A program made the position numbers and the translations under genes. The notes under the pieces were generated by a model, which saw only the letters and a program-made list of their open reading frames with translations, did no database searches and was not told the origin of the DNA. From the IMG/VR virus record IMGVR_UViG_3300045988_039227, positions 32,001 to 96,000 of that record: a stretch of DNA of 64,000 bases. One strand, written 5' to 3'. Position 1 is the first letter of the stretch. Each line of letters opens with the position of its first letter. Origin of the DNA: a virus. Below are positions 1 to 64,000 of this stretch, one piece after another.

Positions 1-3000
1 AATATTGTAAGAGGTACTTGCTTTGATTTCATAGAGCCATCCTTACCTTCCCATGTCTTTGTATACATAAGAATATTCTCAGCTATCCATCTCTCTACAG
101 ACTATCTATTACCACCAAGTGTAGAGAAGTCTATTGCTATCTTACCATCAAGCGATATATATCTAGGCATCCTGCCATCAAGAGCTGCATCTGTATACTG
201 TTTAAGTATGTATTCAAACCACGACATAGGTTCTACGCCATTTGGATTGTTGCGTGGGTCAAATTTTGTTACTCCATCTTTAGCTAATTGCATTCCAGAA
301 GGATCTGTATAAGGAACTTCTCTAATATCAAAAGCGTCTCTAAATTCTTCTGGATCTATACCAGTAGCATTATTCTCTTCATTATTTTTAATATCAGCAG
401 ATCTTGAATAGAACCACATGTCTGGTATCTTTACTGTACCGTCAGGCTACTAAGAAAAGATTACATTACTAAAATCTTTAACAAAGCCATTCTTTGTCTT
501 AATAAGCTTCTTCATTGAACTCTAGAACATTCTCTACAAACTTTCTTTAGCAGACTTATTTTTACCAAAGATGTATTCGAGATATTCTGGGTTTATACCA
601 TATTCTGAATTAGCATCAATAAACTTATACAGATCCTGCGTAGTTTTTTCTCCAGCTTTAATCTAATCTACTATATTCTGGTACTCTTTATCAAACTCCT
701 CAAAATCTGTAGAATAGTCTGTTTGTTTAGCTAACCAATTATTCCAAGACTGTATCTCAAGAGCCGTCTGTAACTCATCGCCTTCTTTGAGATTACCTTC
801 TTGATCAAATGGGTTACCTAAGTCTTGTAAGGCATCCTTCCACATCTACAGTTTCTGATAATCGTGAGGATTAAGCTTTTCTGGGTAGGATAAACCAGTC
901 TACTTATCTGAACATTTCTATAATAAATAGTTAAGTTGGTCTTGTATATACTGCTGCCTAGAAAGTGTTCTTGGAGATAAACCGTGACCAGTTCTAGTCT
1001 TTGGATCGTAAGGTTTACTCAGACGCTCCATAAAGTATATCTTAGAATATCTTCTGTGCGCATGATCACACAGCCATTCCTCATATCTTCTTTGATATGT
1101 TACATAGTTTGGTTCTTGATCTCCGATCCACTACTCTTCTTCTACAGATGATTCTGTGTCGCTTCTTAAAGTCTCTCCAGTTATAGGGTCTTTATAATAG
1201 AAATAGCCATATTTATCTTGCCATTCTTTATTAAGCTTCTCTTTAAAGTTTTCCTAATCTTGTTTAAACTAACCTCTATTAACAGCTGATCTAAACAAGC
1301 CTGTGAACTCTCCCTTCTTAGGACCGTCTGTATACCTCTCCATCAACATTGTCTACCAGTTTCCTGGAGTAAGGTCATCTATGATAGAGTTGGCTTTATC
1401 AAACGCTTTAGCTATCTACTGCATAACAGGAAGAGATTCTTTTCTAGTCTGTTGATCTGCATCCTGTATCATCTAGAATGCTTGGCGAATAATAGGGCTG
1501 TTCTATCTAGAATAGTTAAAGAATAATGTAAGTTTAGACTCATCTCCATACATATCGTTCTTATGAAGCCAATCTTTAGCTACTGTCTTTATTTTATTCT
1601 TCTCTTCCTCTGACTCGTTAATATACTTATCCACATTTTCATCAACTATTTTATCTGCTACAATTTGTGCGGCATCTTTCCATAATTGATTAATCTATCT
1701 TACTGTAGCATTAAGTGTATCAACATCAGCCTAATCTCTAGCATCGAGATCCATCTAGTTATCAGACAATGTTTTGACAAGATCGTTGTAGAAGTCTATA
1801 ATATTAGACTTCATATCGTGTATCTATTCAGCTGTAAGGCTATCGAAATTATTCTTCTAACATTCCTGCAAGAAGCCTAAAATAGTGTCTCTACGAGCCT
1901 ATAAAATAGTATTGTCAATAGGGTCACGCGCAAACACACCAATGGTCTTTAAAGCAGACTGTATAGCTATTCTTGAGGACTCTTTCTTTTCTTGTGACTT
2001 GAGCTCCTATATTGTAGACCACACTTGATCTTCTCTACGCTGTCTATTAGCGCCCTTGTTAAGCTATTTTTTATAATCCTTGTACAATCCCTAGAAAAGC
2101 TCAGTTATTCTATGATGTATCTGATTAATCTTATCTTCAGAAGCTTGTATTGAAGCTAATCTATCTTTGGCTTCCTTATCAGTTATATTGTCTTCTTTCT
2201 ATTCGTTGTGAGACATAACTGTAAACAAATCGCTAACAGCGGCTTCGTATACATTATCTGAACCAATAAATCCTTTATAGCTTGTAAATATCTAAGAATA
2301 TATTTTCTTTATAGTCTGCTTAATCTTTTCGAACAGTGTTTGTTTACGATTATATTGTATAGACTTTAATTTTTCTACAAATTGCGCATTACTTAATTCT
2401 GCTACAAATTCATACACGTCGCTCAAACCGTAGTCCTACGCATCTTCTCCAAGAGCTTTCTTTGTTTTCTCATAGAGATCTGTAAATGACTTTCTTATTC
2501 TAGAATCATTACCAATCGCATGTTCTGTTACAGCATGTAGCATTTCATGGACGATTGTCTATACTTCAGGCGCTTGCGACTTACTTTCGTTTCTGAATCT
2601 AGCATTTTTGTTTATACGGATAACCTTATCGACTCTATCGTAATGTGCAGCCTCTCCTCCAGGAAGATTATCAACTATTTCATATGTAATTCCAGTCTAT
2701 TTATCATTAAAATACCTATTTACGGCAGCCATAACGAGCTTTAAAGCTGTACTAGATATGCCACTTCTATGAGATTTTAAATACTGCTACAATGTTGATA
2801 TGTCGCCCTTAGAAGGTATGTTAGACAACCTAGTTGCTGCTCCCATATTCGATTCTCCTTGAGAAGATGCATATATGTCATCTGGATTAGCAAACTGTCC
2901 ATTGTTGAATACAGATTTTACCTATGAATTATCTATACATTCATATACAGTATGAGGAGAATACGTTTCGGCGGAAGACCCATAATCAACAACGTTGTTT

Positions 3001-4463
3001 ATTATTACGCCATCATGATGAAAATCAGGATTGTAAAAGTGTATATTATTTTTCTAGTATTCCTACTTTATTTGATTTATATCTAAATCCAAATACCTTT
3101 TTATAGTAATAATATTATCTTTTATGTAAAAATTAGCATCTCTATTTTTATTTATGCTAACAGTGACTCCATATATATTAAATTTAGAGAAATCTTTATT
3201 CCTATATCTAGTATAAAGATCTGCTCTTGAATCGGATATTTCTGCATCAGAATAATTAGTGGTAAGGTATGTTTTTTCTAAATCCCTAGTTGATAGTGCT
3301 TTCTATCTTTCTTTTGCATAATATATAAGGTCATCTTCTGATATGCCTTTAAATAATGATGAAAGATATCTAGACTCCATAATATTTTCGTATATTGTTT
3401 TAGCCTATTCGGCACTAAAAACATGAACAATACTATAGATTATATCGTCGAAATTAAATTTTGAATCATATTTGTCGTCATCAAATGGAAGAATATCGTC
3501 AACAAGTCTATCTTTAAATTTATTTAATTTGTCATCAATTTCGTAATATCTTTTTTCATGAATATTGCTCCAACTATGACCATATGCATCAATTATTTTC
3601 GGGTTTTTGATATTTAAATAGTCAACTTTTATATTATCATAAAGATTATTTTCAAATCTGTTTTTATATTTTTCCGGATTAGCGTTATTATGTATATCAC
3701 TAAAATTGTAAAACGACCCTATTATATCTTCATATACAGAAGTAATTAATTTAAAAGGAACATTTGGATCCTAATACTCAACAAATAGTCCATCTAATTT
3801 TAACAAACAATCTTCTGCGTCTTTTATGTTACCATAATTTATCGCTTCTATAATTTTTTTCTTAAGAATATTATTAAACCAATCAAAATTACGTTTATCT
3901 TTAAAATCAGATTCTTCAACATTGTTCAAAATGCTAATAACAGTCCTTTTGGAATCTGTGTACCACTATGAATATTTTTTTAATGTGGCGTCATTAAACG
4001 ACGATAATATATAACTAGTCACATCGTTATAAGTCGATGACATAGTAATGCTATCTGTATGATATATAGCAGTTTTAAAACCTTCTATATTTGTGTCAAA
4101 CTTCTTAAAATTAGGACTATATTTACTGTTTACTGTATGATATGTAACCTACGGCTCTCCATTCTTATCTACAACTTTAGATACATTTTCTTTATCTTCA
4201 GAAGTCCAATCCCCAAACCATTTAAAGAATTCGTCAGAATATACTTTTGCCTTAAGTATAAGGGCTTGTGTTCTGTCGCCGTTTGCAATATGCAATAGCT
4301 CTCCAAATAATATAGAGTCGGCGCCATTTGGCGCCTTATCTATACTATATCCATTATTTTTGCTCCAGAGTAAATACGCAGTATCCTCATCGAACAAATC
4401 TTTTAATTCACCAAATTCTTTGGCTACTTGTTTATTATGTAAATTAGGACATATTTCTTTCAT
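1..4463 (-). CDS. Large ejected/virion polyvalent-type protein with an HExxH (zincin-like) motif. The 3' end lies beyond the window start (at least 1,487 codons).
   Basis: ATG at 4463-4461 overlaps the TAA of the upstream giant gene (TAATG). I read every codon of this frame down to nt 1 and found no TAA/TGA and ~39 in-frame TAG. ORF-track pieces 4149..4463, 663..845 and 102..419 are collinear fragments that each end in TAG. Motifs: FKWFGDW...VVDKNGEP-TAG-VTYH near the N-terminus, and VHEMLHAVTEH at 2535..2549. Confidence 0.8.
2535..2549 (-). other. HEMLH (HExxH) zinc-metallopeptidase-like motif inside the 1..4463 gene
   Basis: Minus-strand codons CAT GAA ATG CTA CAT lie in the gene frame. 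Context is IVHEMLHAVTEHAIGN, with a downstream Glu. Confidence 0.5.
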
Positions 4464-7400
4464 TATTTACCTCCTTTGCAATGTTTTCTAATTCTTTCAG
4501 CTTCTTCTATATCTTCCTTAGTAAGATTAATCTATGCCAAAGCCTACTTCTGCTGTTCTTCTTTAATTAGTGTATTAGCGTAATTATCACCTACAACTCC
4601 TTCTATTGATAATCCGTAGCCAGTATAACCTGCTCTAGTATTTTCCTAAACTGTTGATTTTATGTTAAATCTAGAAAGTAATTGTAAACTAAGCCATTCA
4701 GCAGCCTCTCTAGGTAACGCTGCTTTGCCAAGAGCTATAGCGGATGGGAATACAATTGGTTTACTATTGTCTATTCTTGCAAGCATATGGTTAACCCATG
4801 ATTTAAATGCCATTATATCACCTTGATTATCCTAGAAACATCCATCTTTAGCAAGCCATCTACCAGAAGCATCTTGCTGATTAACTTTTACTACAAGACC
4901 AAACGCATTAGGTGTAATTTTGCCATCACTACCAGTTCTGATGCAAGCTTGATTTGTACCAGTAGCACCAGAGCTTACATTTAATACCGGATTCTAATTA
5001 GCAAAACCTTGCATAGACAAACCTTGCGCCTTAGCATAAGCCTAAGCATTATCTGTGAATACGTACTGTACATTTGGGTGTTGTTGAGGCTAGTCTTTAT
5101 AGAATAACTGTTTGCTTATATACACAGTCTATCCAGAAGGACCTTTACCATCAAGATTAATATTAACAGCACTTTGTGTACTTTGTTGTTCTACAGCTTG
5201 TGATATTGTAGGATATTCTGAATTAGCATTATAGTACATCTAATTGAACCACGACATCCAGTTATTGCGCTGCTCGTCAGTAATATTTGGCTTCATCTGA
5301 CTAAGATAAGTCATAAGTTTACTAAGTTGGTTTTCAATAACTTCTTGACTCATAGGAATTCCATTTATATTTAGGTTAATATCACCAGCTTCGTAGATAT
5401 TAAGACCATCTCTATCTGACCAGCCCCTCTTAGGTAATAACGCATATACGGCACGCTTGGATCCATTAATCATAGCCTCTCCAACCTTTTTATACAATGT
5501 GTATGACGTTGGATCGCTATATACTGCTCCATCATTTCGTACTGATATATACAAAGCATCATGTTCGTGAGAGTCCTTGCTAATTATTACAGCAGGAGAA
5601 TACTAAGCATTGAAAGCGTAATAGTAATCTTTGAATGTAGCTCTGCTTACTAAATCGCTATCCATATAGTTGTTCTAAGCTATAAGATCGTGATTAATTT
5701 CTGGGGCTTCAAGTTGTTCCCTAATATAATCAGAGAATGGCACCGTACTTTCGTCGTGTCTAGCTTCAAGCCAACTCATAGGAATGTATTTAGCTATTTT
5801 ATTAAAGCCCTTTGTATCGCCAGATGTAAGCATTGCATACAATATAAGATCATTCGCAAATCTTCTAACATTAGCCTAATGGTCATTAAGAAGCTCCTCC
5901 CAAGACTCTATAAACATATCAGAAGACATCTTACTCTCATCCATACTATTAATAACGCTTATAAACTTAGGTTTGTTAGTAGGTTTTCCGTTTACAAAAA
6001 CATCCTAATCCTAAATATATGGAGCAAGATGTGATAATAGATAGTTATCTTTTAATCTACCTAAACCGTATGCATCACGCTGAATACAAGCCTGTATAGA
6101 GTTCAATCTATCAAATATTGTAGCATTACCGTCAAATAAACCTTTAACATCAATACCTAAAGACTTAGCTAATCTAAGAGCGTATCTAGCTTTAATCTAA
6201 CTACTAGCAGCCTATGATATCTTCTTCATAGTCTTAGCGTTTCTAAGCAAATCGGACTCTCTGTCATTCGTCTTATATTTAAAGTCATCGGATAAATTGA
6301 TAAGCTATTCCATAAACTAAGGTGTACCCTAGAATGATTGTCCAGCCATAACTCTCATAGGCTCTTGAATAGCGTCTCTTGTTTTCTACTCAATCCAAGT
6401 ACCATGTATAAGATTATTGATAGAGTTCGTATCAAACAGCTAATCAGTTTCTGGGTTTGTAAGATTCTCGTAACCTCTAAGATAAGCTTGCATCTCAAGG
6501 AAATTCTTACCTTGCTTACGAGTATCAATCTTAGTATACTGTACCAAACTATTTAATGCGTTAGAATACTTTTCAAGACACTTCCATGCTATGTAGCAAT
6601 TAACCTAGAAGGCTCTAGCTCTTTCTCCCTCTTCGGTCTAAGCATAGACTAAATCTGGGTTCTTAGCAATCTTCTAAAGCATATCCATATTATTGAGTAC
6701 AGAGTTTACTATCTCTGCTCGTCTAGCTGGTTCGCCTTTAGATTTATTTGGTTCAGTAGCGTCTTTAATATACTAATCGTCTATTGTTTTGCCAGTAACG
6801 CTAGGGAATATCTCTGCGAGTCTCTTATCTCTCATTTCGAAAGCTGACCTAAATACCTTAGGATCTCTAGTAAACTGAGACTTTGCATCAATATCTGCTT
6901 TAGCCATCTCTCTAATAATAGGCTAACATAAGAAATAAAGACCTTGTTTACCCTTACCGTTTCTAGCAAGTAAGTTGATCATATTATATGTAAACCCATT
7001 TACATTAAGCTTAGAGATATATGGATCTTTCACAATATCTACGTGGGCATTAATGAATGCTGATAACCAAGATGAAATCTGATTATTATCTTCATCAAGA
7101 ATCTAATCGAAACCGGTAATACCTGTCATCCGTGTAAAGCTAGACTCTTTAAATTTAACACCATACAATGTTGTAAGAATATGGTTTGTTACATTCAACG
7201 CAAATGGACCAATACCAGTCTTACCTGTAATGTAGTCATTTTTACGGGTAACCTGTTCATGCAGTGTACCAAAGTTGTACGCTACGCTCTTTGTGTTACC
7301 CTGTTCTGGAATCTCATCTGCAATGCTTGTTACAAGCTCTGTATCATTATCGATAGATTTATATAAGATATTAAGTGACTTTTTATCCTTAAGTACTGTA

Positions 7401-10400
7401 AGAATACTTTCTATAATGCTATTCTACAATCCTTCTGCGCTTTCTGGATCAAATTCATAACCTCCATTCTCATTAACATTATAACGTGCTAAATAAAGGT
7501 GGTCTATATCAAAATCCGAACCAGTAATCTTGGTAAACTCAGTTGGAAGTATTACTGTAGATTTAACAGCAGGTACAACATCAACAAAACGTAAAGCATG
7601 TATAGATGACTGAGCCTGTGTAGGAATACGATAACCAATCGTATTAGATGTGGCATTTTCTCCGATTATATTATGATCTAAAAGCCATTGTCTAGCTTCG
7701 TTGTAAGATAAGTTCTTTGGAAGTATATCCTAGAAGTAATCAATAGATATTACAGCATCCATAGAGCCTTCTTCGTTTATCATCTACAATCTCTTACCAT
7801 TATAGATCTCCTATCCTTGTATACCGCCTTCGCCATTTTTGCCTTCTATAGCAAATACTGATCTCTGAATAAACGAGCTACCAGGAGTCATAATGTCAAT
7901 AATATCCTTATTAGCCGCAGATATAAGCATAGACTCCATCCAGCTAGCATCAGCAGTAGATGCAATAGGCGCATTCATTGAGCCCGTCTATGGATTATAT
8001 GTAAGAGCGTCTATAAGATTCTTATTAGCATTTCTTGTGCCAAGTTGCTCTATAAGGTACTCGCTAAGCTTCTTTTGGTCTATAATTCCGTTAGAGTAGA
8101 ATCTATCTTTAAATTTGTCTACACCAAGTTTAGAAAGCTTATTAATAGAGCCCATTAACTTGTCTCTAAGCTGTTCTCCAGTCATGTCGCCATACGTTCT
8201 ATCAAGTCGCAAACTAGATAAACAAACCTTAATCATCTGTGTACCGGCTGCTACAACATCACCTTCCTCTGGATCAGTATTAAGCTGTCTACGAAGCGCA
8301 GATAATCTCTGTGTATAAACGTTCAGCGGCTTACTAATAGTCTCTCCATCGAACTCAGAATGGCCTTGTAGACCAACCTTTACAGCAGATGTCATAAGAA
8401 GATTATCAACCTTATTTTCCTTCATCTTATCATACACATTCTTAAGTTTACCTGTGGCTATACAATCAAATATAGGGAACAACGCAAACTTATTATAATA
8501 TGGAACAGATAAGTTAGAAACCTTCTTTCCATTCGTTGTATGATCCCTAAATCCGTATGCTGTATATTTTGTTGTTACAAGATTCACTTTATTATACACA
8601 AGGTCGTATGCATCTTTTTGATCCATCCACGAATATTTATCAGAACTTTCAAGGATATTAATAGCCTTTGCTACGTCGCCGAATAGCGCACCTCTAGAAC
8701 GAAGCATTCTTTTGCACATATCTGCTGTAATGTAAGATGCACCATCGGCTACATTGATTCCACCAGTATAGGCTTTATAGAAGTTGTTAGCTCTAGTTTC
8801 TATCTTCTTAACAGCATCCTCGCCAAAGTCGTCTACAAGCCTAGCTCTTACTGCGCCTATATCTAAATCATCAACACCTTTAAATCCGTAACGGTTTCCA
8901 TAGATTTCCCTAAGTTCACCATCACGCATCTTCTCTTGGAGTTCGCTCATTACATCGGCATTTGAAGCTACTTCATAGTCTGCTATCTCTGCACATCTAT
9001 AAAGTTCTCCATCTGAACCATCATAGTTTGGCAACGATGGGACGTTGTCATCACCTGTAGACACAAGGCCACCGATACGTTTCTGAATATCCTCTACGTT
9101 CTTAAAGAATCCAGGGTTGCCAATATATAATCTCAAGCATTCTTCTGATGAAATCATACCCCTATTTGTAACATCTTGTAATATAGCTGCTATAGCCATA
9201 CTATACGCTGTACGCTGTAAATTTTGTGTATTAGGCGTTATTCCTTTATCGGTGAGATCTTTATACATCTAAGCGTATAAAGTGCGTTCTACAGCATCTA
9301 TTTGGCTCTAATTAAGGTTTATGTTATTAAGGCCAAGGTAACCAAGCTTTTCATCTTTTGACACTATACCAAGACTAACGGCTTTATCTACCTCAAGTTC
9401 GTACTGCTCCTAAAGTGTTAAAGCCATTATCTACTCTTGCTCTTCTCTAGACTTATCAAAGAACTGTTCATTAAGAGTCTTAAGCTATTCGTCAGGAGAC
9501 ATATTGCTTATTTCGTAGCGTTTAATCTAGCCGTCTTCATACACTCTAAGTGTCGTAAGTGATTTAAACTGAATACCACCAGGCTACTTTCCTTTCTTGC
9601 CGATGTGATAATTCATTATCTTGTCTTCATCATTAAGTACGGGTAAGCCCTTAGGGTTATCTACATGTAAACCAAGTTGTTCTCTACAATCAAGTATAGC
9701 TTCACGCTCTGTATAAGCATATTCGATAAACTGATTTAATACAGATTGATTAGGCTGCAAATAGTAGTGAGAGCTATCTAAGAATATCATCTTTGGTGCA
9801 CCGGATACAGTATAAGCACCATTGTCTAACTACCCGAACTACATTCCAGGGATATTTATACCACCAAGAACCATATATGTACCCTTATCGGCAAGGGTTG
9901 GGAATACACAATATCCATTCTGAAGCATTGCGAACTTATTAATATAATCTTCAGCTTCAGCAAGATTGCTATATTTAGAACCATTGTCACCACGATTATC
10001 AGACTTGAAGCCAATAGGAGTATAAATACTAATATTGAAATCTTCTCCGTTCTGCAATTGCTTTGCAACAATAGAACCCATGTTCACGCCATTATTATTC
10101 ATAATGTTGTAACTAGACTACAAAATAGTCCTTACTACCATATTGTTCTTATCATGACTATTAAGGTTCTCTGTAGTATTGCTAATACTATTGTTCTATG
10201 ACTCGTTATACAGCTTAGTACCATCCATACCATTAGACATCTTATCTGTAGTAATCTTCATATAGGCTCCAGCCCAGTTACCTAATTCGCTAACAAAACC
10301 AGTCTTAAATATCTCGTCTACAGCCTTCTGTGTTGTATAACCATTTGTTTGTACGACTTTGCCGACTGCATCAATAAAACTATTAATATTAGATACACCA

Positions 10401-23705: not shown

Positions 23706-23728
23706 ATTATTTATCTTCTTTCTCTATT

Positions 23729-29249: not shown

Positions 29250-29268
29250 AATTTTAGCTATAACTGAC

Positions 29269-34417: not shown

Positions 34418-34419
34418 AA

Positions 34420-34668: not shown

Positions 34669-34669
34669 A

Positions 34670-36535: not shown

Positions 36536-36536
36536 A

Positions 36537-36806: not shown

Positions 36807-36853
36807 GGTGTATTATTTTATAATCACGATAATACTTTCTCTTATGTTTAAAA

Positions 36854-40162: not shown

Positions 40163-40164
40163 TT

Positions 40165-41310: not shown

Positions 41311-41316
41311 AATAGA

Positions 41317-53584: not shown

Positions 53585-56055
53585 TACTTCTCGCCAACCG
53601 TTTTGTTCTTAAGGGCCGTGCGAGCCTTAAGTTTCTCGCGTTCGTAAGCAGCATCATCCTTAGCCTTCTACAGCTCTGTTTCATGCTTCATCTTATCCTT
53701 CTCAAGCTAAATCTTCTGATCCTCTATCTCACGCTTCTACTTAGCTTCATAACGCTTATTATAAGCCTCTTGATTAATCTTCTGCTGTTCAAGAGCCTGC
53801 TTGCCGATCTCTATTGGGTCTGGGATTCCGTTTTGATCCTGATCTAACTATTCTGTTCCACGATAAGCATTAATTTGTGCTACAGCTATCTTAGTCTGAT
53901 TATCTTGATCAATCTGATATCTCTGAAGATCCATCTGAGCTTCCTGTAACATGAGCTCCTGCTGCTTAGCTTCATTCTGCATCTGCTGTAACTGCTGTTG
54001 CTGCTGAGCCTCTGCTTCCTGCTGCTGTTGCTGCATCTACTCCTATCTGGTCTGCATATCCTTAAGCTTCTGCTTAATGATATTAAAGTTATCGTTTGTA
54101 AGGATTTCTGCTGCTTCAAGTAAGCTAGCACCATTTTGCATAGCTGGCTGTATAAGCTGCTGAAGTTTCTGTATGTTCTCGAGATCCTTAGATGTATCAC
54201 TTACAAATACATCCATATCTTCGTAGTAGAACTTAGGAGTAATATCTAAGAATGCTCTTTCTCCATTATCAAAGATGTACTGGAGTTTTTGTTTACCAGT
54301 CTCTTCCCAGGCGCCCTTAGCTGTATTAAGAAGCATATTGAGAACTCTTCTCTTACACTGATTGTGAACCCAGAACAACGGCTCAGTAATATGCGAGCTC
54401 TGTACAACAGATCTCTCTACGTTACCCACCATCTCTGATGAGCTTACTGCTCCTTCACGCTGCTGTGTAATACCAGAGATTGTACCAGCAAGCTCCTCTA
54501 TTTTATCCATTAGCTGTATGTATTCAGCTATGACGTTAGACATTGTAAGATCCAATGCTGTAATCTAATTGAATTGTGCAGGCTTACCGCCTTCTCTTCC
54601 AGGAATATTCCAGCCCTCTTCATATGGGTTAATAAAGTTAACACCAACACTAGACAAGTAATGCATCCACTTAGCTGGACTAATATTCATAGATTTAGGA
54701 ATCTATGTAATATCCATATTAACAACCTTGCCTTTATCTCTAGCAATAGCTAACTCAAGTCTGTACCACAATACAATATACATATACTGTAATGGCTTAA
54801 GTATACTAACCAATGATCTAGGCTTGCTATTAGTGTTGCTGTAAATAGCTCCACAATAAGGGAGCTTCTGGCTATTAGGGTTATCGATACTTACGTGCTG
54901 ATACTCAATAGGCTATATACCAAAGTACAAGTCGCTACCAGCTCTATATCCTTCCCATACCTCTACAATCCAATCTGGTTCTACACTAATCTCATTACCA
55001 ACAGGCTGATATGTTTCATCAACTATGTTAATCTGAGGCTGTCCTGCATCGTCTGTAGTAGTTACGTAGAAGATCTTCTTAAAAGACTTCCAACAACAAT
55101 GCCATACGTTTACAAGAGATTTACCTGCTCCTTCAAATATAGGATTATCGTATATACGTAATTGTATACCCATATCAACAGGACTTCTGTCTCCGAGGTT
55201 TCTACCAGGAGTAGAGCCAATCATCTCCTCAAGCTTATCAAGATCTTTCTCTTCAAGCTTGTCGTAGTATCTATCGTATACTTCAGTAATAGGCATACGC
55301 ATCTTTCTGCAGCACCATGAGCCATCCTCAACAAACTCTAAATCTGGACTCTTGTCATAAGAGAAGTATATAGGATTAACTCTTTCGACATATGGCTCTG
55401 CGTTAAGCACGCCAACATAATAAATTTCTCTACCTGAGATCAATCCATCCTTCCAGCCTTTGATAAACTCGTTGTCAAGATCAAGTTTTTCTCTCAGATA
55501 GGTAAGCGTATGATACGCTGTGTTTTCTACAATATCTTTATAATCCTTATCCATGTACTTAGCTATCTACTCTGGTGGCATAACCTCTCCAGATTGTAGC
55601 TATTCCTGGAACTACTGAGCCTCTTCTGGGCTCATTCTAGCTGTGATAGCTGCTTCTATATATTGTAGAATCATCTATTTCTCTTTCTCCTGCATTTCAG
55701 ATGTAGCCTCCTATGAAGTTCTGATAACTCTGAAGTTAAGAGGCCTCTTTGTCTCCTCACCTATAAGCAAGTCTACTTTAGGTCTTATAATATTAAAGTC
55801 ATGAGGAGTAGCAGGAAAACCATCCTCGACCTTGAATGGGTTTGTAATTGATTTAAAATCCTTCTCGTCGAAGATGCTGTTATATAAGTTATAATAGGTC
55901 TACAGCTCTCCGTAATATGATGTACTATTTCCTCCAGATGTTACGTTACCTTCACCTATAATATAGTTAACGCAGTCTTCTTGCCACTTCTTTCCTTTCT
56001 TTGAAAGAGGGAGCTTTTGTCTGGGGAAAGCTGAATTGTATAAGTTATCTTCCAT
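53584..56055 (-). CDS. Portal protein (candidate), 823 aa, with a Gln/Glu-rich C-terminal coiled coil
   Basis: ATG at 56055-56053, 3 nt after the TerL stop; TAA stop at 53586-53584. Track ORFs 54913..55554, 54043..54555 and 53848..54036 are in one frame. All gaps read: ~16 TAG, no TAA/TGA. The size and the position next to TerL fit a portal. Confidence 0.7.
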
Positions 56056-56058
56056 GTA

Positions 56059-58122
56059 TTAAAATGTGAATATCGGCATACCGTCTTCACTTGTGCTGCT
56101 ATCTTCTTCAAACCATTGTTTGCTAAATAACGGCATCTCGAAGAGTTCAACCTATTTGTTTTGTTCTTTTGCAGACGAAACCTTCAGCTAATAAAGCTCT
56201 TCTCTATATATCATAACCATGCATAGAGCAATCAAGCGGTCAACGTTCTTTACTCCATCATTGGCCATAAGCTCTTCTATCAAGGCTTCGCTGTATACTC
56301 TTTCTACATTAGGGTGACCTGGTTCATACTCATCTAGCAGCCACTCTAATATTAATCCTTCGCCATATGCCCTAATCTGTTTGGTCATGTGGCATCCTTT
56401 TCTTCTTTGCACTTTGCTGTCTTTAAAGACTTCAGATATGATTTTATCTGGCTAATCAGCCAAGAGGTAATCGCAGTGTTTATTCGTAAAGTAAGGGTAG
56501 ATTCCTTTTCTTTCATTCTCAAATAATAATCTAGCGTTATAAAATGTAAGTAGCTTACGCACGTTCTCGTAGTACTCTTCTGCTGTATCTGGTCTTCCAG
56601 AATATTCTGCTACTATTACATCTGTCCATGCCTCACCAGCTCTTACACGTTTAAATATAAATGTAGAACCGAGAGAGTTTGTAAAGCTATCATCATGATC
56701 ATAAGGGTCACAGCCTCCTATGTATAAACCTAAAGGAGGATCCTTTACTGGGTACTCCCATATAACTACAGATCCATGAGGCTTATCTCCTTTCTTAAGA
56801 GGGTAGTTAGTTATATCCCCGCTAGGCTTTTCTGTAGCCTTTACTTGACCATTTCCATCCCATTCTAGATCAACTATATGCTTCATGCTCTAAAGTTTCT
56901 TGTTGGTCCTTATTCTGGTCAACTGGTCCATCAATAACTTTCTAGGGAATATATTCTTACCAAGCTCAAGTACAGCCTCTGCTGGTCTAATAGGACGCTC
57001 TGATATAAAACGGTCCATAGACTACTGGCTGGCACCTCCATCTTTAACTTTATTGCGTTGTTCAAGAAGATTCTCAATAGCTTTCTCTTTATAGCTATTA
57101 CCATCTTTGTCCATGTAAATCTAGTTGCCATCGTCATCGAATGACTCTAGATTAGAATAAGCTGGTACAAAGAATCCGCATTCTGTATTTTCTCTACCTT
57201 CATCCCACTTGTTTGGGAAGCTAAGTACATTATATGCCTTAGGTTTGTAAAATAATTCTTTCAAACCATCGAATGATGCACCTTCTGTACCACCTGTACC
57301 AAACGCAATCATTGTACCGAATGCTTTGCCATCGTCAGTTTCTACTGAAGGTTGTTCAATACGCCATGCGTCAAGAAGGCTAGGGAATTTACCTCCCTCC
57401 TCCCATAGTACAAGTTTACCACGGGTACCACGAATACGTTCAGGGTCATTCTTCAACGTAATGCCTACTATGCTAGAAAGGTATCCTCGTTCAGTCTATT
57501 TACCAAACTCATCGGTAACTTTGTAACCTGATACTCTTTCCATACGGGTTGACACAAGCCTCTGTTTAGCCCATGCTGTGTGCTGGTCAAGGAAGTCCAT
57601 TATCTACCATGCTTTAGTAAGCAAGCCATCACCGATAAGGAATTTCTGTTCTGAAGCTACAGCAAAGTTCTTAGAACCAGGAATAAGCATATAATTTCGT
57701 ACGAGCATCGAAGCTCCTTTAAATGAATATCCACGCTGTCTGCATTTAAGTACAGCCATATGCTTACCTTCTAGTTCTGCTTGCTCTATGGCGCAGAAAT
57801 AATAGTAATCATAGTCCCAGAAGCTAGGGAACTTAAGAATACGTTCTCTTCGCTTTCTAAGATTACCTTCCCTATCAGTGTACTCTGTTTCCTTAAGGGC
57901 CATGATAGGACTATAGTTGAGATAGAAATAATTAAAACCTGTTATACCTTCTCCATCTGGAGCTGTATAACCGTTAAGGCATCTATCTGTTTCTTGATCC
58001 CAATATTTGTTATAATCAGTAGTACCCATAGGAGCTAAAGTATAACATCCGTGTTCCTAAAAGAAGATAGCTGCCTATCTAAACTTATCGGTGTTATGGA
58101 GTTTTTGTTCGAAGTCTACCAT
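56059..58122 (-). CDS. terL: Terminase large subunit, 687 aa
   Basis: ATG at 58122-58120, TAA stop at 56061-56059. Track ORFs 57604..58029, 57121..57456, 56452..56886 and 56188..56412 are in one frame and each ends in TAG (10 TAG in total). Motifs: Walker A-like VLKCRQRGYSFKGA, Walker B-like GKLVLWEEGG, and a nuclease acidic cluster GGCDPYDHDDS. Confidence 0.85.
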
Positions 58123-58127: not shown

Positions 58128-58637
58128 TTATTCATACATGCCAATAGTGCCACCACCTTTGACTCTACCAGCTTCTGCTTGTTCTGCTTTTGCCTACTTC
58201 ATAGCCATGTCTAACGACTTAATAATACCACTAACATCTTTCAATATAGCTGAAAGCTTTTTAGCAGTATCTATATCAAGTTCTTCTTCAGCATAGCTAT
58301 CCATCGTGTTCATAATGCCCTCTGCTGCGCTCTTAGAAGATTTAAGCAAGCGAGTAGCAGGAGTCTCTTGCAACTCCTGAAACTTTTTTGCCAATTCTTT
58401 TACAGCATCATCAGGTTTGTAATTCTTATCATTAAGTACAGCTTCAGCTACTCTCCATGTGCGCTCTTTCTCTGGATACGCCTCATATGGGCTATTCCAT
58501 TTATAACGCCATATAACAAACTCTATCTTTCTTAATGCGTCTTGTTTATCTTTAGCATTGTTATAGAAGTCTTTAAATGGTGGTATAGCTAAATCCTCTG
58601 TGCTTAATTGTATTTTGTTCTATATGATGTCAAACAT
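58128..58637 (-). CDS. Hypothetical protein, 169 aa; small terminase subunit only by position
   Basis: ATG at 58637-58635 overlaps the upstream TAA (TAATG); TAA stop at 58130-58128, 5 nt before the terL ATG. 2 TAG, one of them at codon 6. Confidence 0.35.
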
Positions 58638-61600
58638 TACTAAATTCTCCTACCCCTAATATGAACTACGTGATCTTCATATACATTATCCATATTATCT
58701 GTTACATTATCAGAAACTAAGAACATTTCGCTCTCATGTAGATTACTATCAGAGTATGCGCTAGTTAAATTCGGATAGGATGGAAGCCCTACTATACGTA
58801 TGCCGCATTTGCCATTAGAAACGAATTCGACCGCTAAATCGCCCTCTTGTACATATGTCGAAAAATATGCCAGAGATTTAGATCCAATACCTATTCCGGT
58901 ACCAATGCCAGTTCCAATATACAACTAAGCATCATTGTCTCTAACATTAGAGAAAAACTTAGTTTTGCTATCTGTTGATATTCTCAATCCAGACTAAGAT
59001 TGTGAACCAGACTAGCTTTCTGATAAATAGTAAAGCTGCGCTATATTATTACCAGTTGTGTCATTTATAAACATTCCAGAAGATACCGCTTTTGCGTTTG
59101 TATCAGGACCAGTATAAACGGTTTGTTCTTTTGTTGTTATACAGGTCTATCCATTAGGGTTAATAAACGTTGCATCTGTTAAATTCGCCTTTTTTAAAAC
59201 AACATTTTCAAGCGTTGCGTCATTAGCTTTCAAAACACCGGTACTTGTAACAGTGAATGGGGCCGTTGTTAAATTAGCGTCAGATATTTCTCCGGCCCAT
59301 ATACGAACATCGCCTTTTCCTTCAGTTGTAACCTTACCACTCAATGGTGACGATTCGTCTACGGCTTTACTAGATGTCATACCAGCAACTATCTTATCAC
59401 CATCAAAAATAACAAGTTCGTTAGATGAAATTTCTTTTATAAACGCCTTATTAGCAATAACAAGATCAGCCACAACATTAGGAGATATAGTAAACGCTGA
59501 GAAATATGGAGCAGTATCAGGAGTTTTTTTCCATTGATCCTATTCTCCAAGATCAGTGTTCACACAAGCGTAATACATGTTATTATAAAGTACAACATCT
59601 TGATAGAATATACCATTTTCGGCATCTCTCTTTCCATCATAATATTTAAAGCCTTTATTCCAATCGGTTGTTATCTATCCATCAACTTCTCTAGACATTC
59701 TTAAAGGTGAGCCTTTAAATGTTTGCCCAGTAGATGAATCTCCTGGATCTCCCTTTTTACCAGATGCTGACACTGGGATAGCCATAGATGTAAGATATGC
59801 ACCATTTTTGTTATAGGCATATATAGTGACAACACTAGACTTAGATTGTACTGTTGTATTTACTGTGGCAACCCAATGATCAGAGCTATATTGTAAGTCT
59901 GTTTTATCATTTGAATTTAACTACAACCTTATATCAGCATCATTACCACCTACGCTACTTCCGTTTTTGTACAAATTAACATCGCAGCTCATCTGTAAGT
60001 TGTAATTCTAATCTGCTGGAGCATATGATAATGATATATTTGAAAGCTACAACTAATATGTTACACCGTTCAATCCATCTATACCAGACTTAACGATTGG
60101 AACATATTCGCTTAATGTTATTGTTCCATTTGTAGCTTTAAATAACATTCCACTCTCACCCTCTGTTTGGATCTAATCTGTTGATATAGTATTCCATGAA
60201 TCACCGTCATTTATACTATATGAGAACTACCAATCAGAGCTATTTGATGGAGTTATATTTGTAATCTTTGAGCCATCACTCTTTGCAACATATACACTAA
60301 TGAGATTTGGATACATTGCTCCATCTTGGAGATTAATAGCAGCAGCAGATGTTTTAATATCGTACGAAATAGCATTATCTCCTGGTATACCATCAGCACC
60401 TCTAACAAGACCAAATAACTAAATTTCAGCCTATCTAACCTATGATGACACAGATGTAGATGTTGGAGTGCCGACAAGGATTATTTTATAATATATATCG
60501 TTGTCAAAAGATAAAGTATTCTCTGGTATGTTTATATTAACCTAATTTCCCTCTATTGTGAAATACTGATCTTTGTTTGAGCTATAATCATTTCCTGCAG
60601 AATCAGTAAAAGAACCTATTGATAACGTAAAGTCAATTGGATCACCATCATTATACATATACGCCGTAGATGATGATTCAAATCTCTTATTCTTATTATC
60701 CTGTGTCAAATAAAGATATTTGTTCTCTCCGACAACATCCATGATAAGAGCACTTGCTATACCATCTTTAGAATAATAACTCCACAATGCAGGACTAGAA
60801 TAAGCGTGCCAATAAACATTTTCGCTACCAGCATCGGCATATTTCTTTCTTACGCAAACCCACTGCTTATAACCAGGACCTTTCTTTTCTAAATCCTATG
60901 GATCATCAGTCCATTCAGAACCTTCCCTGATGTATTCGTTATTCTAAAAACCTTCGTCGTTAGTCCATGTTTCTGGGAGATTATGTGTTGGAGCAATCAA
61001 TGCAGCGTAGTATATGTATTCTACTCCATCTCCATCCATACCATTCTATCCAAAGTGCGACCATACAAATGGCTGGCTCCACTGAGGACTCCACTGTCCT
61101 TTAGTATTTATGGCTACCGAGCAATACTCATAAGGACGATCTTTAGTGACTCCATTTGGGTGATCGGTCCATCCTTCTGGTACAACTGGAACGCCATCTT
61201 GTATAGATACATTTCCAGGACTATATATATTTTCTCCTTCAATAGCTGTTTTGTATATGAAGTTAACGCCACTACCATCTTCTCCTGCGGTACCGCTTCC
61301 TGTAAGACATATTGGATTTATATATTCTCCATACTAGCCATTACCGTTTATGAATACCTATGTCATCCATACGAGGTGACCTTCTCTGTAATTAGGGGCA
61401 TTCTCCAGCCAACCAGAACCTTCCTCTGGTTGTCTATTATCAGCAGGTTTAGTTACAGATGTGACTTTATTAGAAGTCTCTTTAAAATAAGACTTGTAGT
61501 ATCCATACTTTGTAGGATCTACATCTGACCCACCTCCGCCAACAGGGATTTTTATATCACCGCCGTCTTCAATTGAATAATATATGTCATTTATAATTAA

Positions 61601-62263
61601 TCTTGATAATGTGCCTTTTCTTATATAATTCTTAAGCTGGTCCTAAACATAGCTAACATCAACATAATTGCCAACTCCGCTACCTGATAAAGCAACCTCA
61701 AATTTACCGCCATTCTTCTGTATGAGAATAAGCTTATTATCTTTTATTGTAAATTCAGATATAGAGTAATCTTTTGCTATATCAGAATTTTTAAGCATAT
61801 TATTTATCTCTGCTTTGGTATAATAGCTATCAGCATCAAACTTTGTATAATCTACTATTTTTAGATATGTAGAATCAGCGTAATCCTTTGTAACATATCC
61901 ATCAAGCTTGATACTTTTGATGGCATCGTCTACATATTTCTTTTTAGCATAATCACCTAAGTTTAAATCAGCTATAGCACTAGCTATCAGCTTTGTTACC
62001 TCAAGTAATATCTCCTGCTTAATGGAACCACTTCCATCACCAGTTATTTCATTTAGCTGATCCTAGATATCTTTTAAAGCTTCTTTGCTAGCTTTATTAT
62101 TCCATCCATCTCTCTCTTCCTGTGTTATATGAACAACTGTATCATTGATATGTTTACATAACCTAGAATAGATTGATGAATAGTACTGATCTACCTTTAG
62201 ATCCAGTTCTCCAATTGGATCTCTATGGCAGTGTTTTTCTGGTTCAACACAAAAATCAATCAT
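58637..62263 (-). CDS. Large fibre/spike-like virion protein, 1,208 aa
   Basis: ATG at 62263-62261. The gene ends TAG-TAA at 58642-58637. Track ORFs 62063..62263, 60542..60787, 59147..59473 and 58640..58924 are in one frame. All gaps read: ~25 TAG, no TAA/TGA. The sequence is beta-rich and Gly/Ser/Thr/Asn-rich. Confidence 0.7.
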
Positions 62264-62290: not shown

Positions 62291-62341
62291 ATAGTACTGT
62301 GGTGTCATTGAAGACCACGTCTAAAACGCCACAGTTATAGG

Positions 62342-62824
62342 TTAAATGAAGTTGTTCCAATCTATTGCATCGTTTTTACCCATTACATCGGCAATGTATC
62401 TACAGAACTGTATACCTTCATATCCGTCTTCATCATTAGCTACAGCCATAGCATAATCTAAGCACTATCTCTCATTAATCAATGATGGATAGAAATCAGC
62501 GTAAGCCATATTAGCTGTATATGTAATATCGTATATTGTAGACGTACTAGGTATGCTAATCTTATTAACGTTTATAAGACTCTGTATCTAATCTGCTGTC
62601 CATGTGTGTGAAGTGCCGTTATAGTTTACCATCTACTTACAAGCATGCTCACATAACTTCTTGTTGAAATGCTTTCCATACTTGTCTATGTACTTATGAT
62701 AATCTGTATCTTTGTAAGAACCAAAGGTAGCTGTATAGCTACCATCTTCATTCTGTTTTACATTAGCAGCGTACTTTGTATCGTGCTAATCATCACTGTG
62801 CCGTATTACTATTACTTTGTGCAT
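62342..62824 (-). CDS. Hypothetical protein, 160 aa
   Basis: ATG at 62824-62822, TAA stop at 62344-62342, 4 in-frame TAG, no TAA/TGA. Confidence 0.6.
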
Positions 62825-63296
62825 GGCTAAAAGAATTAATAAAGTTATTAACAGTTGATTCCATTCTACTTATAGACTCCTCTATCTTTGAGAATCTCTA
62901 TTCGGTCTCTTTCTTCTCTTTATAGATAGGATTAAGCTCAGACAGTAATGCTGTCGTCTTATCTACTACCTCCTTCTGTTTAGGAACTGACTCAAGTATC
63001 TTTTCAGCAGTATTCTTCATCTGCTCTACTTCAGCCATAAGACCTTGCTTATCTGTAGACAATACTACATCTCCTGCGTATGTAACAGACAAGTTCTCTG
63101 GTATTGAGTATGTTGCTGTCTTTGAGTTAGCCTCTATGGTTACATCTACAACCATCTGAGACTAACCCATTGTAGGCTTTGTATTTAAGTCTAAATGCGG
63201 AAATCCAACTGATATAACCTTGCCATCTGTAATAGTTATATCCTGTTTATTCAGTATATATACTGAATAGTTTTGTTTTACATCTTTAAATGCCAT
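62793..63296 (-). CDS. Hypothetical protein, 167 aa
   Basis: ATG at 63296-63294, TGA stop at 62795-62793, overlapping the next gene by 32 nt. 2 TAG. Extends track ORF 62898..63155 in both directions. Confidence 0.55.
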
Positions 63297-63316
63297 AAGC
63301 TTTATCTTTATATGTA

Positions 63317-63336: not shown

Positions 63337-63353
63337 CACATAAATTAAACTTA

Positions 63354-64000
63354 TTAAGCTGTAGCAGTTGTCTTAAGTGCAGCAATCAAAGTAGCATTCT
63401 ACTTCTGCTGTGACAATTCAAGGCGAGCATCATTGTATCTCTGCTACAAATCTGACTGCCAATGATTGTTTAAAACGTCTACTATTCGCTGAGTATTGGT
63501 ATTTGCGTTCGTCTTAAGATCGCAAGCCATCTAACTCATCTGGAAACCAAGGTTACTTGCAGCTCTCTCCAAACCTGAGTTTGTGTAGCTGAAACCTGTC
63601 TGCATCTGGTTAACGATGTCCTTCTGCCCAAGTTGATTCTCGTAGCCCATCTTGATAATGTTCTATTGCGTCTGGCAGCAGCAGTTCTGCAATGCAGATG
63701 TAAGGTTAGCATCTCCGAGATTAATAGCGTTAATAACGCGTTCTGCAGAGAAGTTTACATTACCTGCTACTTCCTGGATACCGGACTTAACGCAGCAAAT
63801 AGCATTATTCAATGCGTTGAAGTCACAGTTCAGGTTAGAGGCTAACTATGTAATTGCATTAGCATTGCCTCTTATGGCATCCATTACCAATGAGCTATTC
63901 TGATTATCAGCGATCTGTGAACGCATTGCGTCGATCTGACTCTGGATTGCGTTGCCCTGGTTACCATCCTGGTTGTTCCACATACGCATAGCGAAGATCA
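63354..64000 (-). CDS. Hypothetical Asn/Gln-rich protein with Cys clusters. The 5' end lies beyond the window end.
   Basis: The frame is open from 64000 to a tandem TAA-TAA stop at 63356-63351. 5 in-frame TAG, no TAA/TGA. C-terminus ...NATLIAALKTTATA. Confidence 0.6.

What the first reader, a model, noticed from the sequence alone, without database searches (positions are those of the whole stretch)
1..64000. TAG is a sense codon across the whole late-gene block (code reassignment, most likely TAG->Gln)
Under the standard code the minus strand breaks into dozens of short collinear ORFs. Every break I inspected is TAG, and the reading frame continues across it. Joining across TAG gives 37 contiguous genes covering about 99% of the window.

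By hand count there are roughly 460 in-frame TAG in about 21,200 codons (about 2.2%) and no in-frame TAA or TGA. All 36 stops in the window are TAA (29) or TGA (7). One frame (4463..19948) stays free of TAA/TGA for 5,161 codons in AT-rich DNA.

TAG also sits inside Gln runs: AQRQ-TAG-TAG-EQQAAQ at 49768..49773, and TR-TAG-E-TAG-MQQQQQ at 54037..54045.

Amber recoding of late genes is already reported for crAss-like and Lak phages, so the phenomenon is not new. Any standard-code annotation of this contig will nonetheless be wrong.
Basis: partly seen in the sequence, partly recalled or inferred. Interest (0 to 1): 0.9.

Follow-up and report, generated by a model that had tools for sequence, protein, structure and literature searches.

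The report
Amber codon read as glutamine

Summary
With TAG read as sense, the minus strand resolves into 37 contiguous genes covering 98.7% of the window. They hold 460 in-frame TAG in 21,164 codons and no internal TAA or TGA. The 36 terminators are 29 TAA and 7 TGA.

TAG = Gln is supported by three independent lines:
- Where the window's TAG differs in two ~89%-identical relatives, about 73% of the replacements are CAG/CAA.
- In alignments to verified standard-code crAss phages with TAG masked, Gln is the best-fitting residue by 31-106 nats.
- The relatives encode a tRNA(CUA) whose 5' 18-mer occurs elsewhere only in tRNA-Gln genes.

The window is a Suoliviridae (Delta-group) crAss-like phage near Burzaovirus. 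Its RefSeq relatives and the public protein collection already read TAG as Q. The phenomenon is published (Yutin 2021, Borges 2021, Peters 2022), so it is already known.

Nuances: the capsid gene has no TAG, and a lysis-cassette membrane protein uses TAG for 12 of its 13 Gln. In the relative cr124_1, early genes avoid TAG or apparently end on it.

Side result, outside the window: in the closest relative the suppressor tRNA gene is split by a 189-nt group I intron, so tRNA finders miss it.

The parts
63354..63998 (-). G01, 5'-truncated CDS (start lies beyond the window end); homolog of cr124_1 gp36 'outer capsid protein/viral fiber'; 5 TAG, TAA stop
62793..63296 (-). G02, 167 aa hypothetical; 2 TAG, TGA stop
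62342..62824 (-). G03, 160 aa, DUF7841 (from the homolog's Pfam listing); 4 TAG
58637..62263 (-). G04, 1208 aa variable fibre-like protein; 24 TAG
58128..58637 (-). G05, 169 aa, gene next to terL; 2 TAG
56059..58122 (-). G06, large terminase, 687 aa; 10 TAG. An identical full-length Q-translated protein is already in the public collection (P0001)
53584..56055 (-). G07, portal, 823 aa; 15 TAG (TAG share of Gln significantly low, 15/73)
52562..53584 (-). G08, 340 aa, glucosaminidase-like (weak Pfam hit in homologs); 15 TAG
50668..52560 (-). G09, 630 aa hypothetical; 15 TAG, TGA stop
49399..50595 (-). G10, 398 aa acidic/Q-rich protein upstream of the capsid gene; 5 TAG, including the TAG-TAG pair at 49768-49773
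47848..49380 (-). G11, major capsid protein (Crass_capsid), 510 aa; 0 TAG, all 16 Gln are CAG
46953..47705 (-). G12, 250 aa; 1 TAG
46209..46937 (-). G13, 242 aa, ring protein 3/4-like (below the Pfam cut-off); 3 TAG
45469..46212 (-). G14, 247 aa; 7 TAG
44774..45469 (-). G15, 231 aa, tail ring protein 3/4 (PF25710); 2 TAG
43570..44694 (-). G16, 374 aa; 2 TAG
42123..43505 (-). G17, 460 aa Cys/His-rich protein; 1 TAG (significantly depleted)
31731..42120 (-). G18-G25, eight fibre/receptor-binding-type genes not shared at the DNA level with cr124_1 or cr7_1: 41317-42120, 40165-41310, 36854-40162, 36537-36806, 34670-36535, 34420-34668, 33719-34417, 31731-33719. 65 TAG in all; G22 is TAG-enriched (18/26 Gln)
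31306..31731 (-). G26, 141 aa, DUF5675 (annotated L,D-carboxypeptidase/transpeptidase in relatives; probable endolysin); 0 TAG
31004..31309 (-). G27, 101 aa small hydrophobic protein of the lysis cassette; 4 TAG
30403..31068 (-). G28, 221 aa protein with an N-terminal hydrophobic (predicted transmembrane) segment in the lysis cassette; TAG encodes 12 of its 13 Gln, the strongest enrichment (q=0.004)
   Evidence: compare the spanin in Borges 2021
29714..30406 (-). G29, tail ring protein 2 (PF25702); 6 TAG
29269..29739 (-). G30, 156 aa; 2 TAG
28431..29294 (-). G31, tail ring protein 1 (PF24228); 9 TAG
23729..28441 (-). G32, 1570 aa virion structural protein; 38 TAG
19956..23738 (-). G33-G35 (22995-23738, 21410-23011, 19956-21410), virion-associated proteins; 48 TAG
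4463..19948 (-). G36, 5161 aa giant protein with a crAss-type virion-packaged RNA polymerase domain (DFDID motif); 124 TAG, no TAA or TGA
3..4463 (-). G37, at least 1487 aa, 3'-truncated by the window start; 39 TAG; contains an HExxH motif

Best explanation
The window is the rightward late module (virion, lysis and virion-cargo genes) of a Suoliviridae (Delta-group) crAss-like phage related to Burzaovirus. Its genes are written in a code where TAG means glutamine and only TAA and TGA terminate.

Inferred mechanism, from relatives and the literature. The phage encodes its own amber-suppressor tRNA(CUA), derived from a tRNA-Gln. The gene lies about 2-4 kb beyond window position 64000, just upstream of the dUTPase gene and on the same strand as the late genes. 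Early and replication genes on the other arm avoid TAG or still end on it, so host ribosomes can translate them under the standard code. Once the suppressor accumulates, TAG-containing late genes become translatable. Late and lysis proteins are therefore tied to the code switch.

Within the block, TAG behaves as a weaker Gln codon. It is avoided in the most highly expressed genes (capsid 0/16, portal 15/73). It is concentrated in a lysis-cassette membrane protein (12/13).

Shown here: TAG is sense, TAG = Gln, and the block is late. Also shown: the suppressor exists in relatives, and the early/late contrast holds in a complete relative.

Inferred only: charging by GlnRS, the timing, and the regulatory purpose.
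For: - Coverage rises from 35% to 98.6% only when TAG is made sense.
- 460 TAG against 0 TAA/TGA in 21,164 codons.
- TAG exchanges with CAG/CAA at synonymous-like rates against cr124_1 and cr7_1: 45 of 62 changed sites.
- Gln is top-ranked in all homolog subsets. The margin is 31 nats over 122 columns from standard-code phages and 106 nats over 261 columns in all.
- Alignments run through the TAG columns.
- TAG position and downstream context are sense-like.
- tRNA(CUA) is present in cr124_1 and cr7_1. Its 18-nt 5' end occurs in genome collections only in tRNA-Gln (43) or tRNA(CTA) (10).
- In cr124_1, early genes have 0.18% TAG and late genes 2.0%, Fisher p=3e-27.
- Late identity of the genes.
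- Published descriptions and proteomics for crAss-like phages: PMC7886860, 10.1101/2021.08.26.457843, PMC9523058.
Against: - No tRNA lies inside the window, and the window's own contig could not be recovered. The suppressor is therefore shown only in relatives that are 89-97% identical.
- No peptide data exist for this phage.
- The tRNA's aminoacylation identity is inferred from sequence ancestry. Simple similarity to crAss001's tRNAs was uninformative.
- The early-gene evidence comes from relatives, because the window holds no early genes.
Confidence: 0.95

Rival explanations
1. TAG is sense but encodes another amino acid (Tyr, Trp, Leu, Ser, Lys, Glu or pyrrolysine) rather than Gln.
For: ARAGORN labels any CUA tRNA 'Pyl' by convention. 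At great distance the TAG columns are variable hydrophilic positions, with E, K, D and N also common.
Against: TAG almost never exchanges with its one-step neighbours in the close relatives: TAT/TAC 2, AAG 2, TGG 0, TCG 0 and TTG 0, against 45 for CAG/CAA. Gln beats every other residue in all likelihood subsets. The tRNA's 5' half is found only in tRNA-Gln genes. Proteomics in other crAss-like phages found Q (PMC9523058).
Confidence: 0.02
2. TAG is read as Gln, but by a host-encoded suppressor or a host with a non-standard code, rather than by a phage tRNA.
For: The window has no tRNA. The literature reports recoded crAss-like genomes with no detectable suppressor.
Against: Every sufficiently complete relative examined carries a tRNA(CUA) gene at the same locus, either intact or interrupted. 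The split form explains why tRNA finders miss it. Early genes of cr124_1 appear to terminate on TAG, which would not work in a host that always reads TAG as Gln.
Confidence: 0.03
3. The TAGs are damage: a degraded or pseudogenised genome, assembly or sequencing error, or low-efficiency programmed readthrough.
For: None beyond the presence of in-frame stops under the standard code.
Against: Only one of the three stop codons occurs in frame, 460 times, with none of about 730 expected TAA/TGA. Two thirds of TAG positions are conserved as TAG in independent assemblies. Dozens of ~100-kb contigs encode the same proteins. A gene with 124 TAG cannot be made by inefficient readthrough.
Confidence: 0.005

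Closest known systems
RefSeq crAss-like phages cr124_1 (NC_055899, Burzaovirus faecalis) and cr7_1 (NC_055895, Burzaovirus coli), Suoliviridae/Oafivirinae
   Same: Same gene order. Nucleotide identity is 87-96% over the shared structural genes, and TerL is 93% identical at the protein level. They show the same TAG usage, including a TAG-free capsid gene and a 12-TAG lysis protein. Their CDSs are already annotated straight through TAG, and a tRNA(CUA) is annotated as tRNA-Gln.
   Different: The window's fibre cluster (about 31.7-42.1 kb) and the giant genes (1-21 kb) have no DNA-level match in those two records. The window's terminase lacks the intein seen in cr7_1-type genomes.
Code-15 (TAG to Gln) late-gene recoding in crAss-like and other gut phages (Ivanova 2014; Yutin 2021 PMC7886860; Borges 2021 bioRxiv 10.1101/2021.08.26.457843; Peters 2022 PMC9523058)
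   Same: The late structural and lysis block is recoded and the replication genes use the standard code. A suppressor tRNA is present, lysis genes are TAG-enriched, and the genome class is ~105 kb.
   Different: Nothing essential differs; this is another instance. The proteomic validation was done on other crAss-like genomes (94 kb and 191 kb), not on this lineage.
Lak megaphages and other TAG-recoded gut phage clades (Borges 2021)
   Same: TAG is reassigned in late genes, and suppressor tRNAs are encoded.
   Different: They are unrelated lineages, and some also encode RF2, which is not seen in the relatives' annotation here.
Group I introns in bacterial and plastid tRNA anticodon loops: tRNA-Leu(UAA) of cyanobacteria and plastids, Azoarcus tRNA-Ile (from my own knowledge). 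Relevant only to the side observation.
   Same: A small ORF-less group I intron sits in the anticodon loop. There is a U.G pair at the 5' splice site, a terminal G, and a conserved core matching Rfam RF00028 over the full model.
   Different: Here the host gene is a phage amber-suppressor tRNA(CUA). At 189 nt the intron is very short, and its Rfam score (25.5 bits) is below the gathering threshold. Splicing has not been shown.

Membership tests
TAG to Gln (code 15) recoded phage late-gene module | Abundant in-frame TAG in conserved genes while TAA and TGA are absent in frame | tested here: met
   460 TAG, 0 TAA and 0 TGA in 21,164 codons; about 536 TAA and 194 TGA expected
TAG to Gln (code 15) recoded phage late-gene module | Coding density is restored only when TAG, and no other stop, is read as sense | tested here: met
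   Coverage is 35% standard, 98.6% with TAG sense, 37% with TGA sense and 45% with TAA sense
TAG to Gln (code 15) recoded phage late-gene module | TAG columns correspond to Gln in homologs | tested here: met
   TAG exchanges with CAG/CAA in close relatives; Gln is top-ranked by likelihood in all subsets
TAG to Gln (code 15) recoded phage late-gene module | Phage-encoded suppressor tRNA with anticodon CUA | tested here: inconclusive
   None in the window, and the expected locus lies beyond position 64000. It is present in relatives, either intact or intron-split
TAG to Gln (code 15) recoded phage late-gene module | Early/replication genes are compatible with the standard code | tested here: inconclusive
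   The window contains no early genes. In cr124_1 the early block has 0.18% TAG against 2.0% in the late block, and 8 of the 14 early TAGs sit at CDS ends
TAG to Gln (code 15) recoded phage late-gene module | Peptides spanning TAG positions carry Gln | not testable with these tools
   Shown for two other crAss-like phages (PMC9523058)
Crassvirales, Suoliviridae, genus Burzaovirus | crAss signature virion genes (Crass_capsid, ring proteins 1/2/3-4, portal, TerL, virion RNA polymerase) | tested here: met
Crassvirales, Suoliviridae, genus Burzaovirus | Genus-level whole-genome nucleotide similarity to the type genomes | tested here: inconclusive
   Identity is 87-96% over shared blocks. However, only 56-67% of window 40-64 kb and none of window 1-21 kb align at the DNA level, and the whole genome is not available
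Group I intron (insert in the suppressor tRNA of relatives; outside the window) | Rfam RF00028 score at or above the gathering threshold | tested here: not met
   25.5 bits against a threshold of 50; E=1.6e-4 with the full model span 1-253
Group I intron (insert in the suppressor tRNA of relatives; outside the window) | P1 with U.G at the 5' splice site, terminal G, and precise excision that restores the host gene | tested here: met
   GGCUCU/GGAGCU P1 and a terminal G. In-silico splicing gives a tRNA(CUA) identical to the natural intron-less allele in L023
Group I intron (insert in the suppressor tRNA of relatives; outside the window) | Structure conserved through compensatory change | tested here: met
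   Five distinct copies. Three pairs carry double compensatory changes, no pair is broken, and the remaining variable columns lie in loops. The sample is small
Group I intron (insert in the suppressor tRNA of relatives; outside the window) | Guanosine-dependent self-splicing | not testable with these tools
   Needs an in-vitro transcription and splicing assay

The most novel reading that the evidence does not exclude
In part of this phage lineage the amber-suppressor tRNA(CUA), on which all late translation depends, is made from a gene interrupted in its anticodon by a 189-nt self-splicing group I intron. The lineage includes the closest relative found (97% identical) and therefore possibly the window's own genome. 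This would explain why tRNA finders report no suppressor in many TAG-recoded crAss-like genomes. More speculatively, it would make the switch from the standard to the recoded code depend on ribozyme splicing, adding a further timing or conditional gate on late and lysis gene expression.
Probability: 0.15. Interest if true: 0.6.

Novelty: already known. Interest (0 to 1): 0.2.

Why it matters
For annotation, the practical point stands. A table-11 gene call on this contig shatters 37 genes into fragments, including the terminase, the portal and a 5,161-aa virion RNA polymerase protein. The biology, however, is established for exactly this phage group: it is published, validated by proteomics in relatives, and already applied in RefSeq and in large protein collections.

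The only element that may add something is the side observation that the suppressor tRNA gene can be intron-split. That offers a concrete answer to the recurring report of "recoded, but no suppressor tRNA found".

Tried and rejected
- Exact-match searches for the window's own contig found nothing in IMG/VR or in JGI metagenomes.
- Contigs reached through G02 homologs (L106, L107, L111, L112) turned out to be cr7-type. They are less similar to the window than L007 and L008, so the intron status of the window's own tRNA gene stays open.
- Pairwise similarity of the suppressor to crAss001's tRNAs did not identify its isotype; the best match was tRNA-Arg at 73%. I replaced this test with the 18-mer genome scan.
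- The 25 segments with an 18-mer match but no tRNA call were 23 chance matches and 2 tRNAs cut by a locus end, not further split tRNAs.
- The single-sequence MFE of the split gene is not better than shuffles (z=-1.24).
- Rfam at gathering thresholds finds nothing in the window. It finds nothing for the additional ~200-nt insert upstream of cr7-type tRNAs.
- I looked for TAG to TAA/TGA exchange at the C-terminal TAGs of early genes between cr124_1 and cr7_1. All alignable sites are TAG in both, so stop usage there rests on position alone.
- TGA-sense and TAA-sense codes were rejected by coverage.
Full report
OBSERVATION

The window has 36% G+C and a uniformly negative GC skew. Under the standard code, ORFs of at least 100 codons cover 35% of the minus strand. 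Reading TAG as sense raises this to 98.6%, with a longest ORF of 5,162 codons. Reading TGA or TAA as sense gives only 37% and 45%. The plus strand is never well covered.

I tiled the TAG-sense ORFs, removed three trimming artefacts and restored one dropped ORF (31004-31309). This gives 37 co-directional genes with short gaps or small overlaps of up to 66 nt. They contain 21,164 sense codons, of which 460 are TAG (2.17%). No internal TAA or TGA occurs, although position-specific base composition predicts about 536 and 194. The two off-frames of the same genes carry 772 and 2,408 such codons. The 36 terminators are 29 TAA and 7 TGA. G37 runs off the window start and G01 begins beyond its end.

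The two quoted peptide contexts are at the stated coordinates. TAG codons are uniformly placed along genes (KS p=0.38). The base following TAG resembles that after other sense codons (T 20%), whereas TAA/TGA terminators are followed by T in 69% of cases. Chance is excluded.

WHAT THE ELEMENT IS

Megablast places the window next to two RefSeq crAss-like phages from human faeces: cr124_1 (NC_055899, Burzaovirus faecalis) and cr7_1 (NC_055895, Burzaovirus coli). Both are Crassvirales, Suoliviridae, Oafivirinae. Identity is 87-96% over the shared blocks, and TerL is 93% identical at the protein level.

Gene content is as follows:
- G06 is the large terminase and G07 the portal, by homology to the annotated RefSeq genes.
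- G11 is the Crass_capsid major capsid protein.
- G29 and G31 are tail ring proteins 2 and 1; G13 and G15 are ring 3/4-like.
- G26 is a DUF5675 protein, annotated as L,D-carboxypeptidase in relatives.
- G27 and G28 are small membrane proteins next to G26, forming a lysis cassette.
- G18-G25 are a fibre cluster with no DNA match in the two RefSeq relatives.
- The 5,161-aa G36 contains the crAss virion-packaged RNA polymerase domain (PDB 6VR4, E=7e-22).

The window is therefore a virion, lysis and virion-cargo module, that is, late genes. It contains no tRNA and no Rfam family at gathering threshold.

WHICH AMINO ACID

(i) Close relatives. I projected window codons onto blastn alignments with cr124_1 and cr7_1. 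Of 185 aligned window TAG codons, 123 are TAG in cr124_1, 30 are CAG, 15 are CAA and 17 are anything else. The reciprocal direction and the cr7_1 comparison give the same picture. CAG to TAG exchange (33 of 194) is as common as CAG to CAA (18 of 194). Exchanges with other one-step neighbours of TAG are 0-5 each: TAT/TAC, AAG, GAG, TGG, TCG and TTG. This is the signature of a synonymous Gln codon.

(ii) Distant homologs. I masked TAG as X and ran tblastn against regions fetched from seven crAss-like phages. Three of them show no in-frame stop in the alignments and so use the standard code: crAss001, FpV4 and cr116_1. cr50_1 shows one. cr113_1, cr52_1 and cr130_1 show 23-71 and are themselves recoded. 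Alignments run through the TAG columns, so homologs do not end there. I then asked which window residue's substitution profile best explains the residues found under TAG. Gln is first in every subset. Its margin over the runner-up is 31 nats for 122 columns from the four phages with at most one in-frame stop, and 106 nats for all 261 columns.

(iii) The decoder. cr124_1 and cr7_1 carry a 72-nt tRNA with anticodon CUA, annotated tRNA-Gln in RefSeq. It lies just upstream of the dUTPase gene, on the strand of the late genes. I scanned 185,579 species genomes for its first 18 nt (acceptor plus D arm). Every matching tRNA is tRNA-Gln (23 CTG and 20 TTG) or another tRNA(CTA) (10), and no other isotype appears. 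The remaining matching segments with no tRNA call are chance matches in coding sequence or tRNAs cut by a locus end. The suppressor is therefore a tRNA-Gln derivative.

EARLY VERSUS LATE

The window has no early genes, so I used the complete genome of cr124_1. The 41 leftward early/replication CDSs have 14 TAG in 7,628 codons (0.18%; TAG is 6% of Gln codons). The 30 CDSs downstream of the suppressor, including the two giant genes, have 387 TAG in 19,319 codons (2.0%; 41% of Gln codons). Fisher's test gives p=3e-27.

Of the 14 early TAGs, six lie in one gene (44749-45219). The other eight lie within the last 24 codons or fewer of seven CDSs, with tails such as "...TTKED*L*" and "...IVILN**". 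This is what is expected if those early genes really terminate on TAG and the code-15 annotation ran on to the next TAA or TGA. A search for stop-to-stop exchange at these sites in cr7_1 was uninformative, because all alignable sites are TAG in both genomes.

UNEVEN USE INSIDE THE LATE BLOCK

TAG supplies 40% of Gln codons overall. After multiple-test correction it is depleted in the capsid gene (0/16, all CAG), the portal (15/73), G10 (5/36) and G17 (1/17). It is enriched in the lysis-cassette membrane protein G28 (12/13) and the fibre protein G22 (18/26).

The capsid gene also has higher GC3 (0.45, against 0.27-0.39 in six of the nine other genes checked and 0.41-0.42 in G12 and G16) and low synonymous divergence from the relatives (0.10 against 0.2-0.27 for terminase and portal). 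That fits general codon optimisation of the most highly expressed gene. [quoted passage not shown]

COMPARISON WITH WHAT IS KNOWN

Yutin et al. [quoted passage not shown] Delta is now Suoliviridae. Borges et al. (bioRxiv 10.1101/2021.08.26.457843) propose that recoding times late and lytic expression. Peters et al. 2022 (PMC9523058) confirmed Gln at TAG by metaproteomics in two other crAss-like phages.

The RefSeq CDSs of cr124_1 and cr7_1 already run through TAG. The 5.8-billion-protein collection holds this terminase full-length and 100% identical to my Q translation. That cluster has 112 member sequences, and the protein was read on 24 contigs, mostly 50-200 kb. That is a pipeline decision and not independent evidence, but it shows the recoding is already handled. 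The finding is correct and already known, and this window is simply another genome of a well-sampled lineage.

SIDE RESULT, OUTSIDE THE WINDOW

L007 is the most similar contig that also reaches beyond the window end. It is an ENA scaffold of 103.6 kb, 96.9% identical to window 46060-64000. ARAGORN finds no tRNA in it. Alignment shows both halves of the suppressor gene separated by 189 nt.

The evidence that this insert is a group I intron is:
- It matches Rfam group I intron RF00028 over the whole model. The score is 25.5 bits, below the gathering score of 50, with E=1.6e-4.
- P1 pairs GGCUCU with GGAGCU, with U.G at the splice site, and the insert ends in G.
- Removing it yields the anticodon loop CUCUAAC with anticodon CUA.
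- The product is identical to a natural intron-less allele in contig L023, and ARAGORN calls it tRNA(cta).

The same intron splits tRNA(CUA) genes in four other contigs (L028, L029/L030, L113, L114). These have different flanks and different exon alleles. Among the five distinct copies, 6 of 11 variable intron columns form three fully compensatory pairs. The other 5 lie in predicted loops, and no pair is broken.

Two further contigs (L018, L020) have an HNH-endonuclease ORF between a divergent tRNA(CUA)-like copy and a 3' tRNA fragment. I found no paper reporting an intron-split suppressor tRNA in phages. Several papers note recoded genomes with no detectable suppressor.

Whether the window's own genome carries the intron could not be determined. 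Splicing itself is untested.

VERDICT

The mechanism is a phage tRNA-Gln-derived amber suppressor switching late genes to code 15. The phenomenon is already known, so interest is low for the finding as stated. The intron-split suppressor in relatives is a modest lead.

Noticed in passing
L007:134-395 (+), about 3.7-4.0 kb beyond window position 64000 by homology; also L028:12367-12628 (-), L029:4021-4282, L113:1596-1856, L114:82-342: The amber-suppressor tRNA(CUA) gene is interrupted between anticodon nucleotides 2 and 3 by a 189-nt ORF-less group I intron. The Rfam RF00028 hit has E=1.6e-4 and is below the gathering score. An intron-less allele identical to the predicted spliced product exists in L023. 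Three compensatory pairs are seen among five copies. ARAGORN misses the split gene, which may explain some 'recoded but no suppressor tRNA' reports.
   Followed up: yes
L018:2900-3470 (+) and L020 (- strand, same locus): An HNH-endonuclease ORF of about 140 aa lies between a divergent, uncalled tRNA(CUA)-like sequence (anticodon arm ACTGT-CCCTAAA-ACAGT, odd T-loop) and a leftover 3' fragment of the usual suppressor tRNA. This is a third state of the same locus.
   Followed up: partly
cr124_1 (L001) early CDSs 30779-32335, 33318-33806, 36435-36932, 39969-40259, 41758-42009, 42415-43047, 43471-43644: The only TAGs in these early genes lie in the last 0-24 codons of the RefSeq CDS. They are probably the true stops, and the code-15 annotation over-extends the genes. 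One genome would then use TAG as stop early and as Gln late.
   Followed up: partly
window 47848-49380 (capsid), with 49399-50595 and 46953-47705: The capsid gene has no TAG and no CAA (16/16 Gln are CAG) and higher GC3. The block at 47.8-50.7 kb is 96% identical to cr124_1 and cr7_1, against about 88% for its neighbours, with low synonymous divergence. The cause is either codon optimisation or a recent exchange.
   Followed up: partly
window 31.7-42.1 kb and 1-21 kb: The fibre gene cluster (G18-G25) and the giant cargo genes (G36, G37) have no DNA-level match in the two RefSeq Burzaovirus genomes. These are the variable, probably host-range and cargo, modules of the lineage.
   Followed up: no
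cr7_1 100180-102714; proteins P0025, P0035 and others (1062 aa): Many close relatives carry an intein (PF14890/PF14528) in the large terminase. The window's terminase (687 aa) is intein-free.
   Followed up: no
L001:34357-34713 (-), L004:20629-20985 (+): The relatives encode a tmRNA-like gene (tag peptide GNVNNIVDYTNVA*) in the early arm. A phage tmRNA in a genome that reassigns a stop codon may be relevant to ribosome rescue at unsuppressed TAG.
   Followed up: no
L020:7971-8045 (-), L023:2695-2767 (+), L107:4802-4875 (+): tRNA-like genes with abnormal anticodon loops lie next to the suppressor locus. ARAGORN reports 'tRNA-??? (tgaa)' and '(ca)', and a tRNA reaches 38.6 bits in Rfam but is not called by ARAGORN. 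In cr7-type contigs an unexplained ~200-nt insert flanked by CCAATACTGGTT repeats lies upstream of the intact suppressor.
   Followed up: partly
L065, L083 (genome contigs: Segatella copri MAG contigs of 101.5 and 101.0 kb): Phage-sized contigs carrying this tRNA(CUA) are binned into Segatella copri MAGs. This hints at Segatella/Prevotella as the host of the lineage.
   Followed up: no
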